A DNA stretch of 59,473 nt from Porphyromonadaceae bacterium (GTDB lineage Bacteria > Bacteroidota > Bacteroidia > Bacteroidales > Paludibacteraceae). This document shows positions 43,005 through 50,656 of this stretch, piece after piece. Position 1 is the stretch's first letter, and each line of letters starts with the position of its first letter. The notes below the pieces were generated by a model. It was not told the origin of the DNA. It was given only the letters and a program-made list of their open reading frames with translations, and did not search any database. A program made the position numbers and the translations under genes. The DNA lies in the NCBI GenBank assembly GCA_905372135.1, contig CAJPNS010000001.1, forward strand, positions 1-59,473. The letters are read 5' to 3'.

Positions 43005-44339
43005 ATGTCTCGGCGGATAAAATATATAATATCAGAATTGAAAGATCAATACTTAATTGAAGATTCCCTACGTCCATGGATAATTGGCTTTAGTGGGGGG
43101 AAAGACTCTACTGTTTTACTTCAATTGGTTTGGTATGCATTAATGGATATTCCTGAAGATAGGAGAAGCCGACCTATTCATGTCGTTTGCAATGATACAT
43201 TAGTTGAGAATCCTATTATTCAAGATTATGTTGATGATGTGTTAAAAAAGATAGCTGATTCTGCTGTAGAAAACGGCTTGCCTATTTTTGTTGAAAATAC
43301 AATTCCACGATTGGAAGACACTTTCTGGGTTAACGTTATTGGACGTGGGTATCCTGTCCCCAACAACTCATTCCGTTGGTGTACTGATAAAATGAAGATT
43401 AAACCCACTTCAAGATTTATTATAGAGCAAGTTGCTGAAAATGGAGAGGCCATAATTTTAATAGGAACTAGAAGCTCAGAAAGCAGTACAAGAGCAAGGT
43501 CTATCAAAAAGCATGAAATCAGAGGAAAACGTCTGACAAAACATCCTCATCACCCTAATACATTTGTTTACTCTCCAATAAAGGATTTACTTCTTGAAGA
43601 AGTTTGGTATATCATTAATACGATGTCCTCTCCTTGGGGGGCAGATAATTCTAAGTTGTTTCAAATATATTTTGATGCAAGTGCTGATGATTATGAATGT
43701 CCAACTATGGTAACAGACAAAAGTCATAGCTCTTGTGGGCAAAGTAGATTTGGATGCTGGACTTGCACCGTTGTTAAAGAAGACAAATCTTTGACTGCAC
43801 AAGTTGCGAAAGGTCAAACATGGCTACAACCGTTACTTTCTTTGCGGAAGAGTATGTTTGATGAGAGGAATATTTCAGACAATAGGCTTCCTACGCGAAG
43901 AAACGGGCAACCTGCCATAAATGATGAGGGAATGAATCAGGGAAATTATACTCCAGAATATCGTGCTAGGTTATTAAAACAACTATTGACGGCTCAGCGT
44001 GAAATGCAAGTTGAAAAACCCAATATTGAGTTAATAACCAATCAAGAATTAATTGCAATACAGGTAATCTGGCACAAAGATTTGATTTTTTCTAACCGAG
44101 TTTCAGAAATTTATAATAAGGTTTACGATAAGATATTGGACATGAAGAAAGATACAGAAAAAATCCAAAAAGAGATTGATTTGCTTAAGTCAGTTTGTGA
44201 TGACAAACCATCGGATTTCGATTTAATTCAAGAGCTGTTAATAATGCAAAAGAATAAAGCGTTGCTCAACCGAAAACGTGGATTGAAAGATGACATGGAA
44301 CGAGTTATAGAGAAATATTTAGATAAAGAGACAGCATAA
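43005..44339 (+). CDS. dndC: DNA phosphorothioation sulfurtransferase DndC (PAPS-reductase-like, Fe-S)
   Basis: PWIIGFSGGKDS PP-loop, DTLVENP, FWVNVIGRGYP, RWCTDKMKIKP, CGQSRFGCWTCTVV. Confidence 0.95.
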   Translation: MSRRIKYIISELKDQYLIEDSLRPWIIGFSGGKDSTVLLQLVWYALMDIPEDRRSRPIHVVCNDTLVENPIIQDYVDDVLKKIADSAVENGLPIFVENTIPRLEDTFWVNVIGRGYPVPNNSFRWCTDKMKIKPTSRFIIEQVAENGEAIILIGTRSSESSTRARSIKKHEIRGKRLTKHPHHPNTFVYSPIKDLLLEEVWYIINTMSSPWGADNSKLFQIYFDASADDYECPTMVTDKSHSSCGQSRFGCWTCTVVKEDKSLTAQVAKGQTWLQPLLSLRKSMFDERNISDNRLPTRRNGQPAINDEGMNQGNYTPEYRARLLKQLLTAQREMQVEKPNIELITNQELIAIQVIWHKDLIFSNRVSEIYNKVYDKILDMKKDTEKIQKEIDLLKSVCDDKPSDFDLIQELLIMQKNKALLNRKRGLKDDMERVIEKYLDKETA

Positions 44340-46456
44340 TGTATATTAAGGAAATACAACTGAATAATTTCAGGATATACAAAGGATTAAACAAAATCTC
44401 TTTACTTCCTTCCGACAATAAAAATATTATCGTTGTTAGCGGGAAAAATGGATATGGAAAAACTACTTTTCTTATGTCATTGGTTTGGTGTTTATATGGC
44501 AAACAAATGGAGAAAGTAGATGAATTATATGAAAAAGAGATTCGAGATAAGGGAAATTATACCAAATATATTGCCAATAGTCTTAATCGGAAAGCATCTG
44601 AAGAGGGAGAAACCGAGTTTTCTGTTTCGATCACATTCTCAGGGGTGAGAATTCCCGATATTACATGTAATGAGGTTACTATAAAACGCTCTTATAATGT
44701 AATATCAAGTACCTCAGATAAAGTTGAGGTTTTAATAGATGGACACTCGAATGAACTAGTTGATGACCTGACAAGAGAAAACCAGAAAGGAGAAGAAATT
44801 TTTATCCGTGACTTTATTCTCCCCATAGAAATTGCCAAGTTTTTCTTTTTTGATGCCGAGAAAATTGTTTCTTTAGCTGAGGTTAATTCTAATAGTCAAC
44901 GGAGACAACTTAGTAAAGCCTATTCGGAAGTTCTTGGAATACAGAAATATGAAGACTTGAAGGCAATTCTCGAAGAAAAGCAAGATGAATATCGTCGTCG
45001 GTCAGCAAAACCGGAAGAGCAAGAGGAGTTGAACCAGCTCCATGCAGACATTGCCAATACAAATATTGAGATTGAGAGATACCAAGATCAGATTGATGAG
45101 CTTAAACATGAACGAAATCAAAAAGAAAAAGAGGCAGAAGATATTCAACGGAAGTTAATTCGTGAAGGAGATAAAATGACTTTGGAAGAATTAAATTCCT
45201 TGAAAGAAGAACAAGGAAAACTTGAACAACAAAAAAATGAAATTCAAGAAAAACTGAAAGATTTATTGGATATCATTCCCTTTGCTTTGGCTGGTGAAAC
45301 ATTAATCGGTATCTCTGAACAACTAGATAATGAACGAGATTTGTCTGAACAGAAATATCGTCAAGAAGATGTTAATGAAAAGATTGATCATATTCGACAA
45401 GATATCGAGACCGAACGTATTAAAACGCATTATGTAATAGATGTAAATATCAGGGATTTCTACGAAGCACAGATAAAGAAACTTGTGAAAAAGTATTTTT
45501 ACTCCGACTTGAAAGAAATCCCCGAAAATCTAAGAATTTTACATGATTTCTCAAATATTGAGACAAATGAATTCAACCAGTTGGTAAATACCGTTAAACA
45601 TAGTTTCAAAGATACTTTTTCACAAATGAATACAGAATATTCTTCTGTAAAAAACCAACTTGATTCCATTACGAGGAAAATTCGTGATGCGGAAAAAAGT
45701 GCAGAAGATGAATACATTGCAGTATTACGTGACACAAAGGAGCGGTTAGATAAACGTATTATATCTATTGAAAACGAAATCGAATCTATTGTTTTGAAAA
45801 TTGGGGGATTAGGAAATCAAAACAAAACATATAAACAGCGTCAAGAAATTCTCCGAAAAAAAATAGATGAGTCTAGTGTTTACTCCGAAAAAGAACAGAA
45901 AACAAAGCAACTGATTAATCGTTTGCAAAACTTTATTAATCTGTTTAAGGAAGAGAAGAAGAAGTCATTAGAAGAGAAAATGCTTGTCTCTCTTGATACT
46001 CTTCTGCATAAGAAAAACTTCATCAAAAAGGTAGATGTGGATATCAGTATGTCTGGAGATGATATTGATATTGTGCTTTATAATGGAAATGGTAGAATCA
46101 TAGATAAAAGTTCGTTGTCTATGGGAGAACGCCAAATGTACGCATCTGCTTTGTTAAGTTCCTTAGTGGATGAGTCAGAAATCGAATTTCCTGTTTTCAT
46201 CGACAGTCCAATGCAGAAGTTTGATGAGGAGCACGCTGAAAATATTATTCGGCATTTTTACCCGAATGTTTCCAAGCAGGTAGTTATTTTCCCTCTTATA
46301 AACAAGGAGCTTACCACAAAAGAGTATAGTATTCTTCAGCCTAAAGTATGCAAAGCATTTTTGATAAAGAACACATCTACTGAGAGTTCTGAGTTTCATG
46401 AAACTACACCTGAACACTTTATAACTACTTACAACGATTTATACAATGCAAATTAA
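44339..46456 (+). CDS. dndD: DNA sulfur modification SMC-like ATPase DndD
   Basis: Walker A GKNGYGKT, FFFFDAEKI, long coiled coil, LSMGERQ signature, VFIDSP Walker B; TAATG overlap with dndC. Confidence 0.93.
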   Translation: MYIKEIQLNNFRIYKGLNKISLLPSDNKNIIVVSGKNGYGKTTFLMSLVWCLYGKQMEKVDELYEKEIRDKGNYTKYIANSLNRKASEEGETEFSVSITFSGVRIPDITCNEVTIKRSYNVISSTSDKVEVLIDGHSNELVDDLTRENQKGEEIFIRDFILPIEIAKFFFFDAEKIVSLAEVNSNSQRRQLSKAYSEVLGIQKYEDLKAILEEKQDEYRRRSAKPEEQEELNQLHADIANTNIEIERYQDQIDELKHERNQKEKEAEDIQRKLIREGDKMTLEELNSLKEEQGKLEQQKNEIQEKLKDLLDIIPFALAGETLIGISEQLDNERDLSEQKYRQEDVNEKIDHIRQDIETERIKTHYVIDVNIRDFYEAQIKKLVKKYFYSDLKEIPENLRILHDFSNIETNEFNQLVNTVKHSFKDTFSQMNTEYSSVKNQLDSITRKIRDAEKSAEDEYIAVLRDTKERLDKRIISIENEIESIVLKIGGLGNQNKTYKQRQEILRKKIDESSVYSEKEQKTKQLINRLQNFINLFKEEKKKSLEEKMLVSLDTLLHKKNFIKKVDVDISMSGDDIDIVLYNGNGRIIDKSSLSMGERQMYASALLSSLVDESEIEFPVFIDSPMQKFDEEHAENIIRHFYPNVSKQVVIFPLINKELTTKEYSILQPKVCKAFLIKNTSTESSEFHETTPEHFITTYNDLYNAN

Positions 46457-49838: not shown

Positions 49839-50656
49839 TAATTATGAGAAATAATCGAACAACAATAATTGATGCTATAACTAAGGCATTAAAAGATAGT
49901 AATATCCCACTGCCAGTTAAAGTTATATTTGATAGAATAGTTGCAAATGATTACTATCAGTTTAAAGCGCAAGACCCATTGAATGTTGTCCGTGTTGAAT
50001 TACGTCGTCATAGTCAAGGTATTGATTTTCCGACTGCATCAAAAAAGAAATATTTTCAAATTCTGAATGATGGAACATATTGTTTAATTGAACAATCCAA
50101 TCTCTTTATCAAAGAGGATAAAAAGAGAAAGGTCATAGAGGAAGATGAGAAAAGATTAATAATGACACTTAAGGTAACTCATAGTGAGTACGTCAAATCA
50201 TTTAAAATCCAGTTGTTAGAACAGCTAAAGGAAATTGACCCTGAAACCTTTGAAATTTTTTGTAGAAAGCTGCTTAAAGTATATGGATTTAAGGATTTGA
50301 AGGTAACTAAACCAAAAAAAGATGGCGGAATTGATGGATACGGGAAGCTTAAAGTTGGAGTTTCTTATTTAAATGTAGCAGTTCAATGTAAACGTTGGAA
50401 AAATTCAACTGTTGGACGGACAGAAATAGACAAATTTAGAGGGGCAATACAAGGTGATTTTGAACAAGGAATATTTATTACAACCTCAAAGTTCTCGAAA
50501 GAAGCTTTGAATGCAACGACAAAGAAAGGTGCCGTACCCATAATACTGATTGATGGCATGATGATAATTGAGATTATGATTGAGAAAAAATTTGGGATTG
50601 AAATAACTAACATGCCATTGTATATAAATGCTTTGGACATGGTATTAGAAGATTGA
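49835..50656 (+). CDS. Mrr-like restriction endonuclease with N-terminal winged HTH (HARE-HTH-like)
   Basis: FEIFCRKLL..YGF, DGGIDG, VQCKRW, FRGA, GIFITTSKFS, LIDG; N-terminal IIDAI..AL...PL.V..I...I helix pattern; ATGA overlap. Confidence 0.88.
   Translation: MIIMRNNRTTIIDAITKALKDSNIPLPVKVIFDRIVANDYYQFKAQDPLNVVRVELRRHSQGIDFPTASKKKYFQILNDGTYCLIEQSNLFIKEDKKRKVIEEDEKRLIMTLKVTHSEYVKSFKIQLLEQLKEIDPETFEIFCRKLLKVYGFKDLKVTKPKKDGGIDGYGKLKVGVSYLNVAVQCKRWKNSTVGRTEIDKFRGAIQGDFEQGIFITTSKFSKEALNATTKKGAVPIILIDGMMIIEIMIEKKFGIEITNMPLYINALDMVLED

What the first reader, a model, noticed from the sequence alone, without database searches (positions are those of the whole stretch)
43005..50656. Non-canonical six-gene DNA phosphorothioation defence operon: dndC-dndD-[dndE-ATPase]-TM-DGQHR-[HTH-Mrr]
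Seen: six same-strand genes that overlap or abut (TAATG, 11-nt overlap, 5-nt gap, 8-nt overlap, ATGA), i.e. one coupled operon in an AT-rich island. Known: canonical Dnd systems are dnd(A)BCDE paired with DndFGH or PbeABCD effectors, with dndB first and a ~120-aa stand-alone DndE; IscS can replace DndA. Here there is no dndA, dndF/G or pbe gene, DndE is fused to an ATPase, the DGQHR gene lies downstream and coupled to a membrane protein, and an Mrr-type nuclease closes the operon. Inference: a distinct PT-linked antiphage system in which PT marks self and the ATPase, membrane protein and nuclease act as restriction and/or abortive-infection effectors. I cannot verify from the sequence alone that it is undescribed.
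Basis: partly seen in the sequence, partly recalled or inferred. Interest (0 to 1): 0.9.

Follow-up and report, generated by a model that had tools for sequence, protein, structure and literature searches.

The report
Bacteroidota-type DNA phosphorothioation cassette with nuclease
This is an intact, horizontally acquired gene cassette of a published type that probably marks DNA with sulfur and carries its own nuclease; only a small membrane protein always paired with its DndB-like gene appears undescribed.

Summary
Six coupled + strand genes (43005-50656, 32.8% GC against 42.8% for the rest of the window) encode DndC, DndD, a DndE-ATPase fusion, a 4-TM protein, a DGQHR protein and a winged-helix/Mrr-type nuclease.

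The claim of an undescribed system is only partly supported.
- The DndE-ATPase fusion is the published DndEi, known in Riemerella, Flavobacterium, Prevotella and Bacteroides.
- Nucleases with an HTH directly downstream of dnd modification genes are described.
- The order dndC-dndD-dndE(i)-TM-DGQHR recurs: DndE(i) lies directly upstream in 43 of 57 DGQHR-anchored loci, mostly Bacteroidota.
- The nuclease is optional, present in 8 of 57.

The membrane protein is mentioned in no text I could read. It sits immediately upstream of the DGQHR gene in 54 of 57 loci and has no family or name. Predicted binding to the DGQHR protein has weak support only.

Most likely this is a mobile PT modification-restriction cassette that uses a housekeeping cysteine desulfurase, with TM-DGQHR as a DndB-like regulatory pair.

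Verdict: new member of a known kind, with modest interest.

The parts
42932..43004 (+). Upstream leader that travels with the cassette (probable promoter region, inferred)
   Evidence: Contigs from two other DNA runs carrying the roughly 98%-identical cassette begin to match the window at 42932 (X3, X9). A third begins at 42999 (X1). Homology to the closest relative G003 ends at 42562. No promoter was demonstrated; the sigma-70 scan was at chance level.
43005..44339 (+). dndC: PP-loop ATP pyrophosphatase / sulfurtransferase, 444 aa
   Evidence: TIGR03183 434.6 bits against a cut-off of 290.4. PADLOC DndC 484 bits. PAPS_reduct domain. SGGKDS PP-loop at residues 30-35 and Cys232/244/251/254.
44339..46456 (+). 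dndD: ABC/SMC-like ATPase with coiled-coil insert, 705 aa
   Evidence: TIGR03185 283.9 bits against a cut-off of 245.85. PADLOC models labelled PbeC (1136 bits) and DndD (308 bits) both match. There is no CxC motif and only 3 Cys, so it is DndD-type and not the CxC/PbeC type defined.
46446..48020 (+). dndEi: DndE DNA-binding domain (residues 5-109) fused to a HerA/FtsK-like ATPase (about residues 150-500), 524 aa
   Evidence: PF08870 DndE 63.4 bits, with HerA_C and FtsK_SpoIIIE hits. PADLOC DndH C-terminal region 94 bits. Solved DptH fragment 7es4, E 1.1e-12. Walker A GNSGTGKT and Walker B ILIDEAH are readable. The full-length architecture recurs in 35 of 57 related loci.
48026..48535 (+). Small membrane protein, 169 aa, about 4 TM segments, no known family
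   Evidence: No Pfam, NCBIfam or PADLOC family above threshold. The best is 8xMP, 19.3 bits against a cut-off of 30. Relatives are unnamed and carry no Pfam domain (27 hits). A positional equivalent of 140-215 aa with 2-4 predicted TM segments lies directly upstream of DGQHR in 54 of 57 loci. Conserved W133 and N137 follow the last TM segment.
48513..49838 (+). DGQHR-domain (ParB/DndB-superfamily) protein, 441 aa (436 aa if it starts at 48528)
   Evidence: TIGR03187 117.6 bits against 58.85. TIGR04172 'DNA phosphorothioation-associated DGQHR protein 1' 146 bits against 450. DndB TIGR03233 only 24 bits against 328. PF14072 48.6 against 29.1. The DGQHR motif sits at residues 136-140.
49835..50656 (+). 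Winged-helix + Mrr-type PD-(D/E)xK nuclease, 273 aa (270 aa if it starts at 49844)
   Evidence: PF04471 Mrr_cat 92.7 bits. D163, D167 and K186 are invariant in 9 homologues, with Q/E at position 184. The AF2 model has pLDDT 85.6. Foldseek matches the nuclease domain to AspBHI 4oc8 (E 3.3e-6) and MspJI 4f0p (8.9e-6), and the N-terminal domain to forkhead winged helices.
51251..51325 (-). tRNA-Asp(GTC) flanking the acquired segment (context)
   Evidence: ARAGORN. In the closest relative G003 the tRNA-Asp match lies about 900 kb from the DUF1015 gene that adjoins it here.

Best explanation
This is a compact, horizontally acquired Dnd cassette of about 7.8 kb, of the type found in Bacteroidota.

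**Modification (inferred from family membership and published work on homologues).**
- A housekeeping cysteine desulfurase encoded elsewhere in the genome supplies sulfur to DndC.
- DndD (ABC/SMC-like ATPase) and DndEi (DndE DNA-binding domain plus a HerA/FtsK-like ATPase/helicase) find and open the target sites.
- The complex then installs phosphorothioate at a short consensus motif.

**Accessory pair (inferred).** The DGQHR protein and its obligate membrane partner form a two-gene module that takes the place of DndB. It most likely limits or tunes modification, and the membrane protein tethers or gates it.

**Restriction (inferred).** The winged-helix/Mrr-type nuclease is an optional partner seen only beside dnd genes. 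Its winged helix reads the modification state so that unmarked incoming DNA is cut and marked self DNA is spared.
For: **Shown here.**
- DndC and DndD score above the curated equivalog cut-offs.
- The DndEi architecture is present with intact Walker motifs, and its ATPase is related to the DptH ATPase.
- One cysteine desulfurase is encoded elsewhere in the genome.
- No DndFGH was found, with a positive control.
- Among 57 DGQHR-anchored loci, DndE(i) is adjacent upstream in 43 (35 DndEi, 8 short DndE) and elsewhere in the locus in 6.
- The TM ORF is directly upstream of DGQHR in 54 of 57 loci, with its stop 39 nt before to 25 nt after the first aligned DGQHR codon.
- The pair persists with 27-31%-identical DGQHR proteins in G273, G181 and G209.
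- The pair follows dndFGH in G209.
- Predicted TM-DGQHR binding has weak support: ipSAE 0.42, best of 3 controls 0.00, runs agreeing in at least 76% of contacts, partner pLDDT at least 70. The mark was reached by 58 of 80 solved complexes and 2 of 110 mismatches. At 0.60 or under it was reached by only 7 of those 80 and by both mismatches that passed.
- The nuclease keeps its catalytic D...(Q/E)xK residues.
- All 8 full-length nuclease homologues seen (40-55% identity) lie directly beside a dnd gene. One of them was also the only full-length hit in a 400-genome phylum sample.
- The six genes are contiguous at about 98% identity in contigs from 3 DNA runs of 3 studies.

**From papers.**
- DndEi helicase activity is required for PT in Riemerella (review passage).
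- DndB is a negative regulator.
- REase+HTH genes downstream of dnd genes are proposed as restriction partners (section 17).
Against: - No PT chemistry, motif or phenotype is shown.
- The desulfurase is a generic homologue (145 bits against a cut-off of 480).
- g5 fails the DndB model (24 against 328) and the TIGR04172 cut-off (146 against 450), so a DndB-like role is analogy only.
- The nuclease is missing from 49 of 57 related loci.
- The closest solved relatives of the nuclease, AspBHI and MspJI, cut modified DNA, not unmodified DNA.
- Its linkage to dnd genes rests mainly on loci chosen through DGQHR.
- No HARE-HTH match was found by Pfam.
- TM/DGQHR pairwise identities correlate only modestly (rho 0.38), about as well as DndC/DGQHR (0.30).
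Confidence: 0.6

Rival explanations
1. This is a modification-only epigenetic cassette with an unrelated hitch-hiking Type IV nuclease. DndC, DndD and DndEi write PT for non-defence purposes or for a restriction partner encoded elsewhere. The Mrr-type enzyme acts on its own against foreign methylated or otherwise modified DNA.
For: - Mrr_cat family membership.
- The best structural matches are the modification-dependent enzymes AspBHI and MspJI.
- The nuclease is absent from 49 of 57 related loci.
- The slot after DGQHR holds unrelated defence-island cargo elsewhere, including TIR, Fic, Schlafen/AlbA_2, RhuM and an SF2 helicase.
- Many PT systems lack linked restriction genes (passages).
Against: - This particular winged-helix/nuclease architecture was seen only beside dnd genes, in 8 of 8 full-length homologues. 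Three of them sit inside the operon, between dndE and the TM gene.
- 64 other genomes in the 400-genome sample matched essentially the nuclease domain. One of them (G166, locus L089) matched at 28% identity over residues 13-255, with no dnd gene within 1.5 kb.
- The start codon overlaps the DGQHR stop (ATGA).
- The gene stays linked in the cassette copies of 3 other runs.
Confidence: 0.22
2. The membrane protein and DGQHR protein, with or without the nuclease, are abortive-infection or restriction effectors and not regulators. The ParB-like DGQHR enzyme degrades nucleotides or DNA, and the membrane protein damages the envelope when infection is sensed.
For: - ParB/DGQHR-superfamily proteins act as NTPases or nucleases in other defence systems, such as DndI and SspE. 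Such a role has been suggested for DndB itself.
- g4 has a sub-threshold match to the 8xMP membrane family (19.3 against 30).
- A true 8xMP gene follows DGQHR in L048.
- The pair is tightly coupled, and its predicted binding has weak support (0.42 against 0.00 for the best control; the calibration counts are given under Best explanation).
Against: - g5 has no fused nuclease domain; only the DndB/DGQHR families matched.
- The pair co-occurs with a complete dndFGH set in G209.
- The pair also occurs in loci with other downstream effectors. That is what one expects of a core accessory, not of the effector.
- No toxicity data exist.
Confidence: 0.15
3. The cassette is a decaying remnant or an assembly artefact and is not functional in this organism.
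For: - The segment 42563-51461 lies at a synteny break relative to the closest relative.
- It is flanked by a gene fragment with no family.
- The genome is a 145-contig assembly.
- In three other runs the cassette lies on contigs separate from the window's flanks.
Against: - All six frames are open and full length relative to homologues.
- Catalytic motifs are intact.
- The same block is found at about 98% identity in three other DNA runs.
- Short contigs of a metatranscriptome library match dndC, dndD and dndEi. This is a weak hint only, because DNA can be present in such libraries.
Confidence: 0.03

Closest known systems
dndCDEi clusters of Bacteroidota (Riemerella anatipestifer, Flavobacterium, Kordia; Barbier 2013 and Zheng 2016, seen only as cited in the review PMC6435447 and in PMC7464106)
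   Same: It has DndC, DndD and a DndE carrying an extra ATPase/helicase domain, lacks dndA in the cluster, and occurs in Bacteroidota. The same architecture is present in 35 of 57 related loci, including Chryseobacterium, Kaistella and Flavobacterium.
   Different: The texts I could read do not say whether those papers describe the membrane gene, the trailing DGQHR gene or the nuclease. The two primary papers are not held.
Dnd modification neighbourhoods with a linked REase fused to a HARE-HTH, and 'clade-3' HerA/FtsK fused to DndE (Rakesh, Aravind, Krishnan 2024, PMC10853773; sections 16, 17 and 24 and passages of section 22 read)
   Same: A nuclease with an N-terminal HTH sits immediately downstream of dnd modification genes. 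The DndE-HerA/FtsK fusion is present, and the system is decoupled from DndFGH.
   Different: Pfam did not identify the N-terminal domain here as HARE-HTH. It folds as a generic winged helix. The main text mentions no membrane partner of DndB-like proteins: 'transmembrane' occurs only in a reference title. The supplementary neighbourhood tables could not be seen.
IscS-DndBCDE with DndFGH or DndI of Salmonella enterica Cerro 87 (PMC11662687 abstract and section 17; PMC6435447 passages)
   Same: It is a PT modification module that borrows a housekeeping cysteine desulfurase, includes a ParB-superfamily accessory protein, and has a linked nuclease that must spare PT-marked self DNA.
   Different: The gene order differs, with the DGQHR gene last rather than dndB first. 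g5 fails the DndB model (24 against 328). DndE is fused to an ATPase. There is no DndFGH and no DUF262-HNH DndI. The nuclease here is PD-(D/E)xK.
DndCDEA-PbeABCD (Xiong 2019; seen only as summarised in PMC10853773 section 16)
   Same: dndCDE is followed by a non-DndFGH accessory set. PADLOC's best model for g2 is labelled PbeC.
   Different: g2 has no CxC motif and passes the DndD equivalog. The operon holds no HKD-helicase (PbeA), small disordered protein (PbeB) or second DndE (PbeD).

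Membership tests
Dnd phosphorothioation modification module (DndCDE core) | DndC PP-loop sulfurtransferase | tested here: met
   TIGR03183 434.6 bits against a cut-off of 290.4. SGGKDS motif and four clustered Cys.
Dnd phosphorothioation modification module (DndCDE core) | DndD ABC/SMC-like ATPase | tested here: met
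   TIGR03185 283.9 bits against a cut-off of 245.85, aligned end to end.
Dnd phosphorothioation modification module (DndCDE core) | DndE DNA-binding domain | tested here: met
   PF08870 63.4 bits against a cut-off of 25 over residues 5-109. TIGR03184 scores only 35.8 against 71.85.
Dnd phosphorothioation modification module (DndCDE core) | Cysteine desulfurase (DndA or IscS) available | tested here: inconclusive
   One homologue at G000:C38:5658-6671 scores 145 bits to the DndA model (cut-off 480). It could serve as IscS does in Salmonella, but this is not shown.
Dnd phosphorothioation modification module (DndCDE core) | Phosphorothioate present in DNA at a consensus motif | not testable with these tools
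   Needs iodine cleavage, LC-MS/MS or PT-seq.
DndEi | DndE domain plus a C-terminal ATPase/helicase domain in one polypeptide | tested here: met
   DndE at residues 5-109 plus HerA_C, FtsK_SpoIIIE and DUF87 hits at about residues 150-500. DptH 7es4 E 1.1e-12. Walker A and B are readable.
DndEi | Helicase/ATPase activity required for PT | not testable with these tools
   Reported for Riemerella DndEi (review passage).
DndB (TIGR03233) | Score above the equivalog cut-off | tested here: not met
   24 bits against a cut-off of 328. PADLOC DndB 20.8 bits.
DGQHR-domain proteins (TIGR03187 / PF14072) | DGQHR domain above cut-off, with the motif present | tested here: met
   117.6 bits against 58.85. 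PF14072 48.6 against 29.1. DGQHR at residues 136-140 is invariant in 20 sequences.
DNA phosphorothioation-associated DGQHR protein 1 (TIGR04172) | Score above the curated cut-off | tested here: not met
   146.3 bits against 450. This is still the best-scoring specific model, and NCBI gives this name to a 66%-identical relative.
DndFGH restriction module | DndH and DndF/G homologues in the genome | tested here: not met
   The DndH model matches only the DndEi ATPase (94 bits, model positions 1296-1633). dnd_assoc_1 gives no match. Both are found in control genome G209 (969 and 179 bits). The assembly is 95% complete.
PbeABCD (CxC ABC-ATPase system) | CxC-type ABC ATPase with a cognate DndE, an HKD-helicase and a small protein | tested here: not met
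   No CxC motif in g2. No HKD or SF2 helicase domain in any of the six proteins. The features are as defined in PMC10853773 section 16.
Mrr-type PD-(D/E)xK restriction nuclease | Mrr_cat domain with catalytic D...(E/Q)xK | tested here: met
   PF04471 92.7 bits against 21. D163, D167 and K186 are invariant and Q/E184 is conserved in 9 sequences. Fold matches to AspBHI and MspJI.
Mrr-type PD-(D/E)xK restriction nuclease | Modification-dependent cleavage | not testable with these tools
   Needs cleavage assays on PT-marked, methylated and unmodified DNA.
Dnd-linked HARE-HTH + REase (Rakesh 2024) | N-terminal HARE-HTH domain | tested here: inconclusive
   Pfam found no HARE-HTH in residues 1-140 even at E up to 10. 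The model shows three helices plus a beta hairpin, and Foldseek matches forkhead winged helices (probability 0.99, E 0.05-0.09).

The most novel reading that the evidence does not exclude
The unnamed 4-TM protein and the DGQHR protein form an obligate, membrane-anchored two-protein module that has not been described. It would be a core part of one lineage of Dnd systems, mainly Bacteroidota, and would replace soluble DndB. It would couple DNA phosphorothioation, or a backup suicide response, to a signal sensed at the membrane such as phage DNA entry or envelope stress.
Probability: 0.3. Interest if true: 0.55.

Novelty: new member of a known kind. Interest (0 to 1): 0.33.

Why it matters
PT systems are a major epigenetic and defence feature of gut Bacteroidota. 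The common Bacteroidota layout is poorly characterised beyond DndEi.

This window gives a compact, apparently self-contained cassette of 7.8 kb and six genes. It could be cloned whole to test three things:
- whether a winged-helix/Mrr nuclease is a genuine PT-dependent restriction partner;
- what the conserved membrane-protein/DGQHR pair does;
- whether DndB-like control can be membrane-linked.

As a discovery it is modest, because most parts and their arrangement are already in print.

Tried and rejected
- **Structure of the DGQHR protein.** The AF2 model reached only pLDDT 72.4, and the conserved 183-223 stretch was below 50. Foldseek against the PDB gave nothing at E <= 0.001 (best 0.24). 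VIA-align wide gave only helical matches of Z 5-6.6 over residues 62-190. A profile search of PDB sequences gave nothing meaningful. The fold is therefore not assigned here.
- **HARE-HTH in g6.** Pfam gave no hit.
- **TM family identity.** Pfam, NCBIfam and PADLOC gave nothing above threshold. The Atlas returned only 'hypothetical protein' clusters at 0.91. A literature search for '8xMP' returned unrelated papers.
- **TM-DGQHR fusions.** None appeared among the best 150 of 926 representative clusters. This does not exclude rarer fusions.
- **Co-evolution.** Spearman rho of pairwise identities was 0.38 for TM/DGQHR, 0.30 for DndC/DGQHR and 0.48 for DndC/DndD, in 42 loci that are not independent. 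This is too similar to separate the modules.
- **Integration site.** No direct repeat of the tRNA-Asp end was found in 42400-51400; only short AT-rich chance pairs appeared.
- **Promoter and terminator scan.** Counts were at shuffle level, and the scan does not cover Bacteroidota promoters.
- **Empty site.** The flanks are on different contigs in the closest relative, so a simple insertion could not be shown.
- **Other runs.** No listed contig from X1, X3 or X9 bridged from the window's flanks into the cassette. The tool warns that holes prove nothing.
- **First DndH-family search.** TIGR03238 rang nowhere, not even in controls. It was replaced, which include a positive control.
- **Earlier notes of this scan.** Nothing was found by place or by sequence.
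- **Papers.** Zheng 2016 and Barbier 2013 are not held.

Full report
**What is there**

The window holds six + strand ORFs: 43005-44339, 44339-46456, 46446-48020, 48026-48535, 48513-49838 and 49835-50656.

| Junction | Reading |
|---|---|
| g1/g2 | TAATG |
| g2/g3 | 11-nt overlap |
| g3/g4 | 5-nt gap |
| g4/g5 | 8-nt overlap from the second in-frame ATG (23 nt from the first) |
| g5/g6 | ATGA |

The operon is 32.8% GC and the rest of the window 42.8%.

| Gene | Call | Score against cut-off |
|---|---|---|
| g1 | DndC (TIGR03183) | 434.6 / 290.4 |
| g2 | DndD (TIGR03185) | 283.9 / 245.85 |
| g3 | DndE domain, residues 5-109 (PF08870), then a HerA/FtsK-like P-loop ATPase | 63.4 / 25 |
| g4 | no family; 169 aa, about four hydrophobic segments | - |
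| g5 | DGQHR domain (TIGR03187) | 117.6 / 58.85 |
| g6 | Mrr_cat nuclease (PF04471) | 92.7 / 21 |

Key motifs can be read directly:
- DndC has the PP-loop SGGKDS and four clustered cysteines.
- DndEi has Walker A GNSGTGKT and Walker B ILIDEAH.
- g5 has DGQHR at residues 136-140.
- The nuclease has D163, D167 and K186 invariant, with Q/E at 184.

**What the rest of the genome adds**

The assembly is 1.79 Mb in 145 contigs and 95% complete. It has a single dndC and a single DGQHR gene. It also has one generic cysteine desulfurase on another contig, scoring 145 bits to the DndA model against a cut-off of 480.

With a positive control (G209, which has DndH at 969 bits and dnd_assoc_1 at 179 bits), the window's genome shows only the DndEi ATPase as a partial DndH match and no dnd_assoc_1 match. 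g2 has no CxC motif, and none of the six proteins has an HKD or SF2-helicase domain. It is not a Pbe system as redefined in PMC10853773 section 16, even though PADLOC's best model for g2 carries the label PbeC.

**Is the layout unusual? No.**

I anchored a scan of one genome per species on the DGQHR protein. It returned 57 loci, nearly all Bacteroidota, including Flavobacterium, Prevotella, Chryseobacterium, Mucilaginibacter, Spirosoma, Algoriphagus and various Bacteroidales MAGs. tblastn with the six window proteins gave this tally:

| Position of DndE(i) relative to DGQHR | Loci (of 57) |
|---|---|
| Directly upstream, same strand | 43 (35 full DndEi, 8 short DndE) |
| Elsewhere within the locus | 6 |
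| No dnd gene | 8 |

Of the 8 loci with no dnd gene, 4 have under 1 kb of upstream sequence. L007, L015, L035 and L037 have at least 5 kb.

So dndC-dndD-dndE(i)-x-DGQHR is a standard arrangement in this phylum.

The literature agrees:
- DndEi is described as an extended DndE of Riemerella, Flavobacterium and Kordia, whose helicase activity is needed for PT (review passage).
- It is noted in human-associated Prevotella and Bacteroides (passage).
- It is described as a 'clade-3' HerA/FtsK domain fused to DndE (passage of section 22).

I could not read the two primary papers, Barbier 2013 and Zheng 2016.

NCBI names a 66%-identical relative of g5 'DNA phosphorothioation-associated DGQHR protein 1'. 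The window's protein itself scores 146 bits against that model's cut-off of 450, and only 24 bits against 328 for DndB proper.

**The membrane protein**

This is the part I did not find in print.

In 54 of 57 loci the ORF immediately upstream of DGQHR is 140-215 aa with 2-4 hydrophobic segments by a Kyte-Doolittle window. Its stop lies from 39 nt before to 25 nt after the first aligned DGQHR codon, with a median of 10 nt before. The three exceptions are:
- L007, a 324-aa ORF with four predicted TM segments;
- L015, a 256-aa ORF with no predicted TM segment;
- L056, which has no upstream sequence.

The sequences fall into several very divergent groups. The 23 closest share an N-terminal 'FK-PW' segment, a GG-G motif in the first TM segment and a W-x3-N motif after the last one.

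The pair also holds for DGQHR proteins only 27-31% identical to g5, in G273, G181 and G209. In G273 DndC, DndD and DndEi are 75-79% identical to the window's, while TM and DGQHR are 28% and 27% identical. In that comparison the pair diverged together. In G209 the pair follows a complete dndCDE-dndFGH array.

The TM family has no Pfam domain and no name in 27 database relatives, and the Atlas gives only 'hypothetical protein' clusters. That note is a lead, not evidence.

A complex prediction for TM plus DGQHR gave weak support:
- ipSAE 0.42, with the best of 3 controls at 0.00.
- The runs agree in at least 76% of contacts, and the partner's pLDDT is at least 70.
- The mark was reached by 58 of 80 solved complexes and 2 of 110 mismatches.
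- At 0.60 or under it was reached by only 7 of those 80 and by both mismatches that passed.

No fusion of the two proteins appeared among the best 150 of 926 representative clusters.

**The nuclease**

The AF2 model (pLDDT 85.6) has three parts:
- an N-terminal three-helix plus hairpin domain;
- a long linker helix;
- a PD-(D/E)xK domain.

Foldseek matches the catalytic domain to the modification-dependent enzymes AspBHI (E 3.3e-6) and MspJI (8.9e-6). It matches the N-terminal domain to forkhead winged helices. Pfam does not call the N-terminal domain HARE-HTH.

Full-length homologues (40-55% identity) occur in only 8 of the 57 loci, always on the strand of a dnd gene and directly beside it:
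- In three they lie between dndE and the TM gene (L005, L014, L021).
- In four they lie after DGQHR, as in the window (L046, L051, L052, L054).
- In one they lie after dndE (L038).

In a 400-genome phylum sample, 64 genomes besides the window's own matched. Only one, G429, matched over the full length, and there the gene follows dndD-dndE. The others matched essentially the nuclease domain. The longest of those was G166 (locus L089), at 28% identity over residues 13-255 with no dnd gene within 1.5 kb. G429's contig has the same length and layout as L038, so it adds no independent case.

PMC10853773 section 17 already reports 'a REase domain fused to a HARE-HTH' immediately downstream of dnd modification genes and proposes it as a modification-discriminating restriction component. 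Elsewhere the slot after DGQHR holds varied cargo: TIR, Fic, Schlafen/AlbA_2 with HATPase_c_4, RhuM, an SF2 helicase, 8xMP and a GHKL ATPase. This was seen in 10 ORFs chosen for being at least 200 aa and close to the DGQHR stop.

**Mobility**

- DndEi was not found in 9 of 9 same-genus genomes searched. Only weak ATPase-level matches appeared in 4 of the 21 other, more distant genomes among the 30 relatives searched.
- dndC occurs in 16 of 400 sampled Bacteroidota genomes. Of those 16, one has a close g5-type DGQHR and four have a distant one.
- In the closest relative (98% identical flanking proteins), homology to the window stops at 42562 and at 51462, and the two flanks lie on different contigs. 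Its tRNA-Asp match lies elsewhere.
- Contigs from three DNA runs of three studies carry the whole six-gene block at about 98% identity. Their spans are 42999-50760 (X1), 42932-50734 (X9), and 42932-48020 plus 47991-50700 (X3).
- The 9,025-nt contig in X9 has 222 and about 1,000 further letters on its two sides that do not lie on the window. There the cassette sits in another context.
- Short contigs of a metatranscriptome library match dndC, dndD and dndEi. This does not prove transcription.

**Mechanism**

*Shown:* gene content, intact motifs, coupling, conservation and mobility.

*Inferred from families and published homologues:*
1. A housekeeping desulfurase loads sulfur on DndC.
2. DndD and DndEi locate and open target sites, and PT is installed.
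3. The TM-DGQHR pair takes the place of DndB as a control or accessory module, possibly membrane-tethered.
4. The winged-helix nuclease reads modification state and restricts unmarked DNA.

My confidence by part is about 0.85 for the PT-writing module, about 0.5 for the nuclease as a PT-coupled partner, and about 0.45 for a regulatory rather than effector role of TM-DGQHR.

The main rival is that the nuclease is an independent Type IV enzyme, given its closest solved relatives and its absence from 49 of 57 loci.

**Verdict**

The operon is a new member of a published Bacteroidota-type Dnd arrangement, not a new system. The one lead worth following is the unnamed membrane partner of the DGQHR protein.

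Noticed in passing
window 42563-51461: The acquired segment sits at a synteny break. In the closest relative G003 (flanking proteins 98% identical), homology to the window stops at 42562 and 51462. The aminopeptidase and DUF1015 flanks lie on different contigs, and the tRNA-Asp match is about 900 kb from DUF1015.
   Followed up: partly
window 50703-51140 (- strand): This looks like a gene remnant between the operon and tRNA-Asp. A 95-aa ORF has no Pfam family. Window positions 50841-51136 match a same-genus genome (G005:C37) at 76% DNA identity. It may be a leftover of the element that brought the cassette.
   Followed up: partly
L105 (G209:C1:877000-895000): A full array dndC-dndD-dndE-dndF/G-like-dndH (1743 aa) is followed on the same strand by a 179-aa 3-TM ORF and a 394-aa DGQHR protein. 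The membrane/DGQHR pair therefore coexists with DndFGH.
   Followed up: partly
L102 (G273:C1:3578500-3588500): In a same-order genome, DndC, DndD and DndEi are 75-79% identical to the window's, but the TM and DGQHR proteins are only 28% and 27% identical. This suggests that the pair is exchanged as a unit.
   Followed up: no
L037:8545-9477: A 311-aa PAPS_reduct-domain protein (31% identical to DndC) lies directly upstream of a TM-DGQHR pair, with no dndD or dndE in 10 kb. This may be a different PP-loop system using the same pair.
   Followed up: no
L006, L008, L010, L013, L015, L038, L042, L048, L049 (ORFs just after DGQHR): The position occupied here by the nuclease holds varied defence-island cargo elsewhere: Schlafen/AlbA_2 with HATPase_c_4, TIR_2, RhuM, Fic with a VbhA-like segment, SF2 helicase, 8xMP membrane protein and GHKL ATPase.
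   Followed up: partly
protein cluster of window:46446-48020:+: The 90%-identity cluster of DndEi includes records that their sources name from Proteiniphilum sp. and from a Pseudothermotoga sp. MAG. This suggests recent transfer across distant taxa or bin contamination.
   Followed up: no
G000:C22:13038-13487: The same genome has a second Mrr_cat-type nuclease, 33% identical over the catalytic domain only.
   Followed up: no
window 16001-18000 and 25001-28000; tRNA-Lys 29774-29847: Two further low-GC stretches (32-34% GC) and a tRNA-Lys lie elsewhere in the window. They may be other acquired segments.
   Followed up: no
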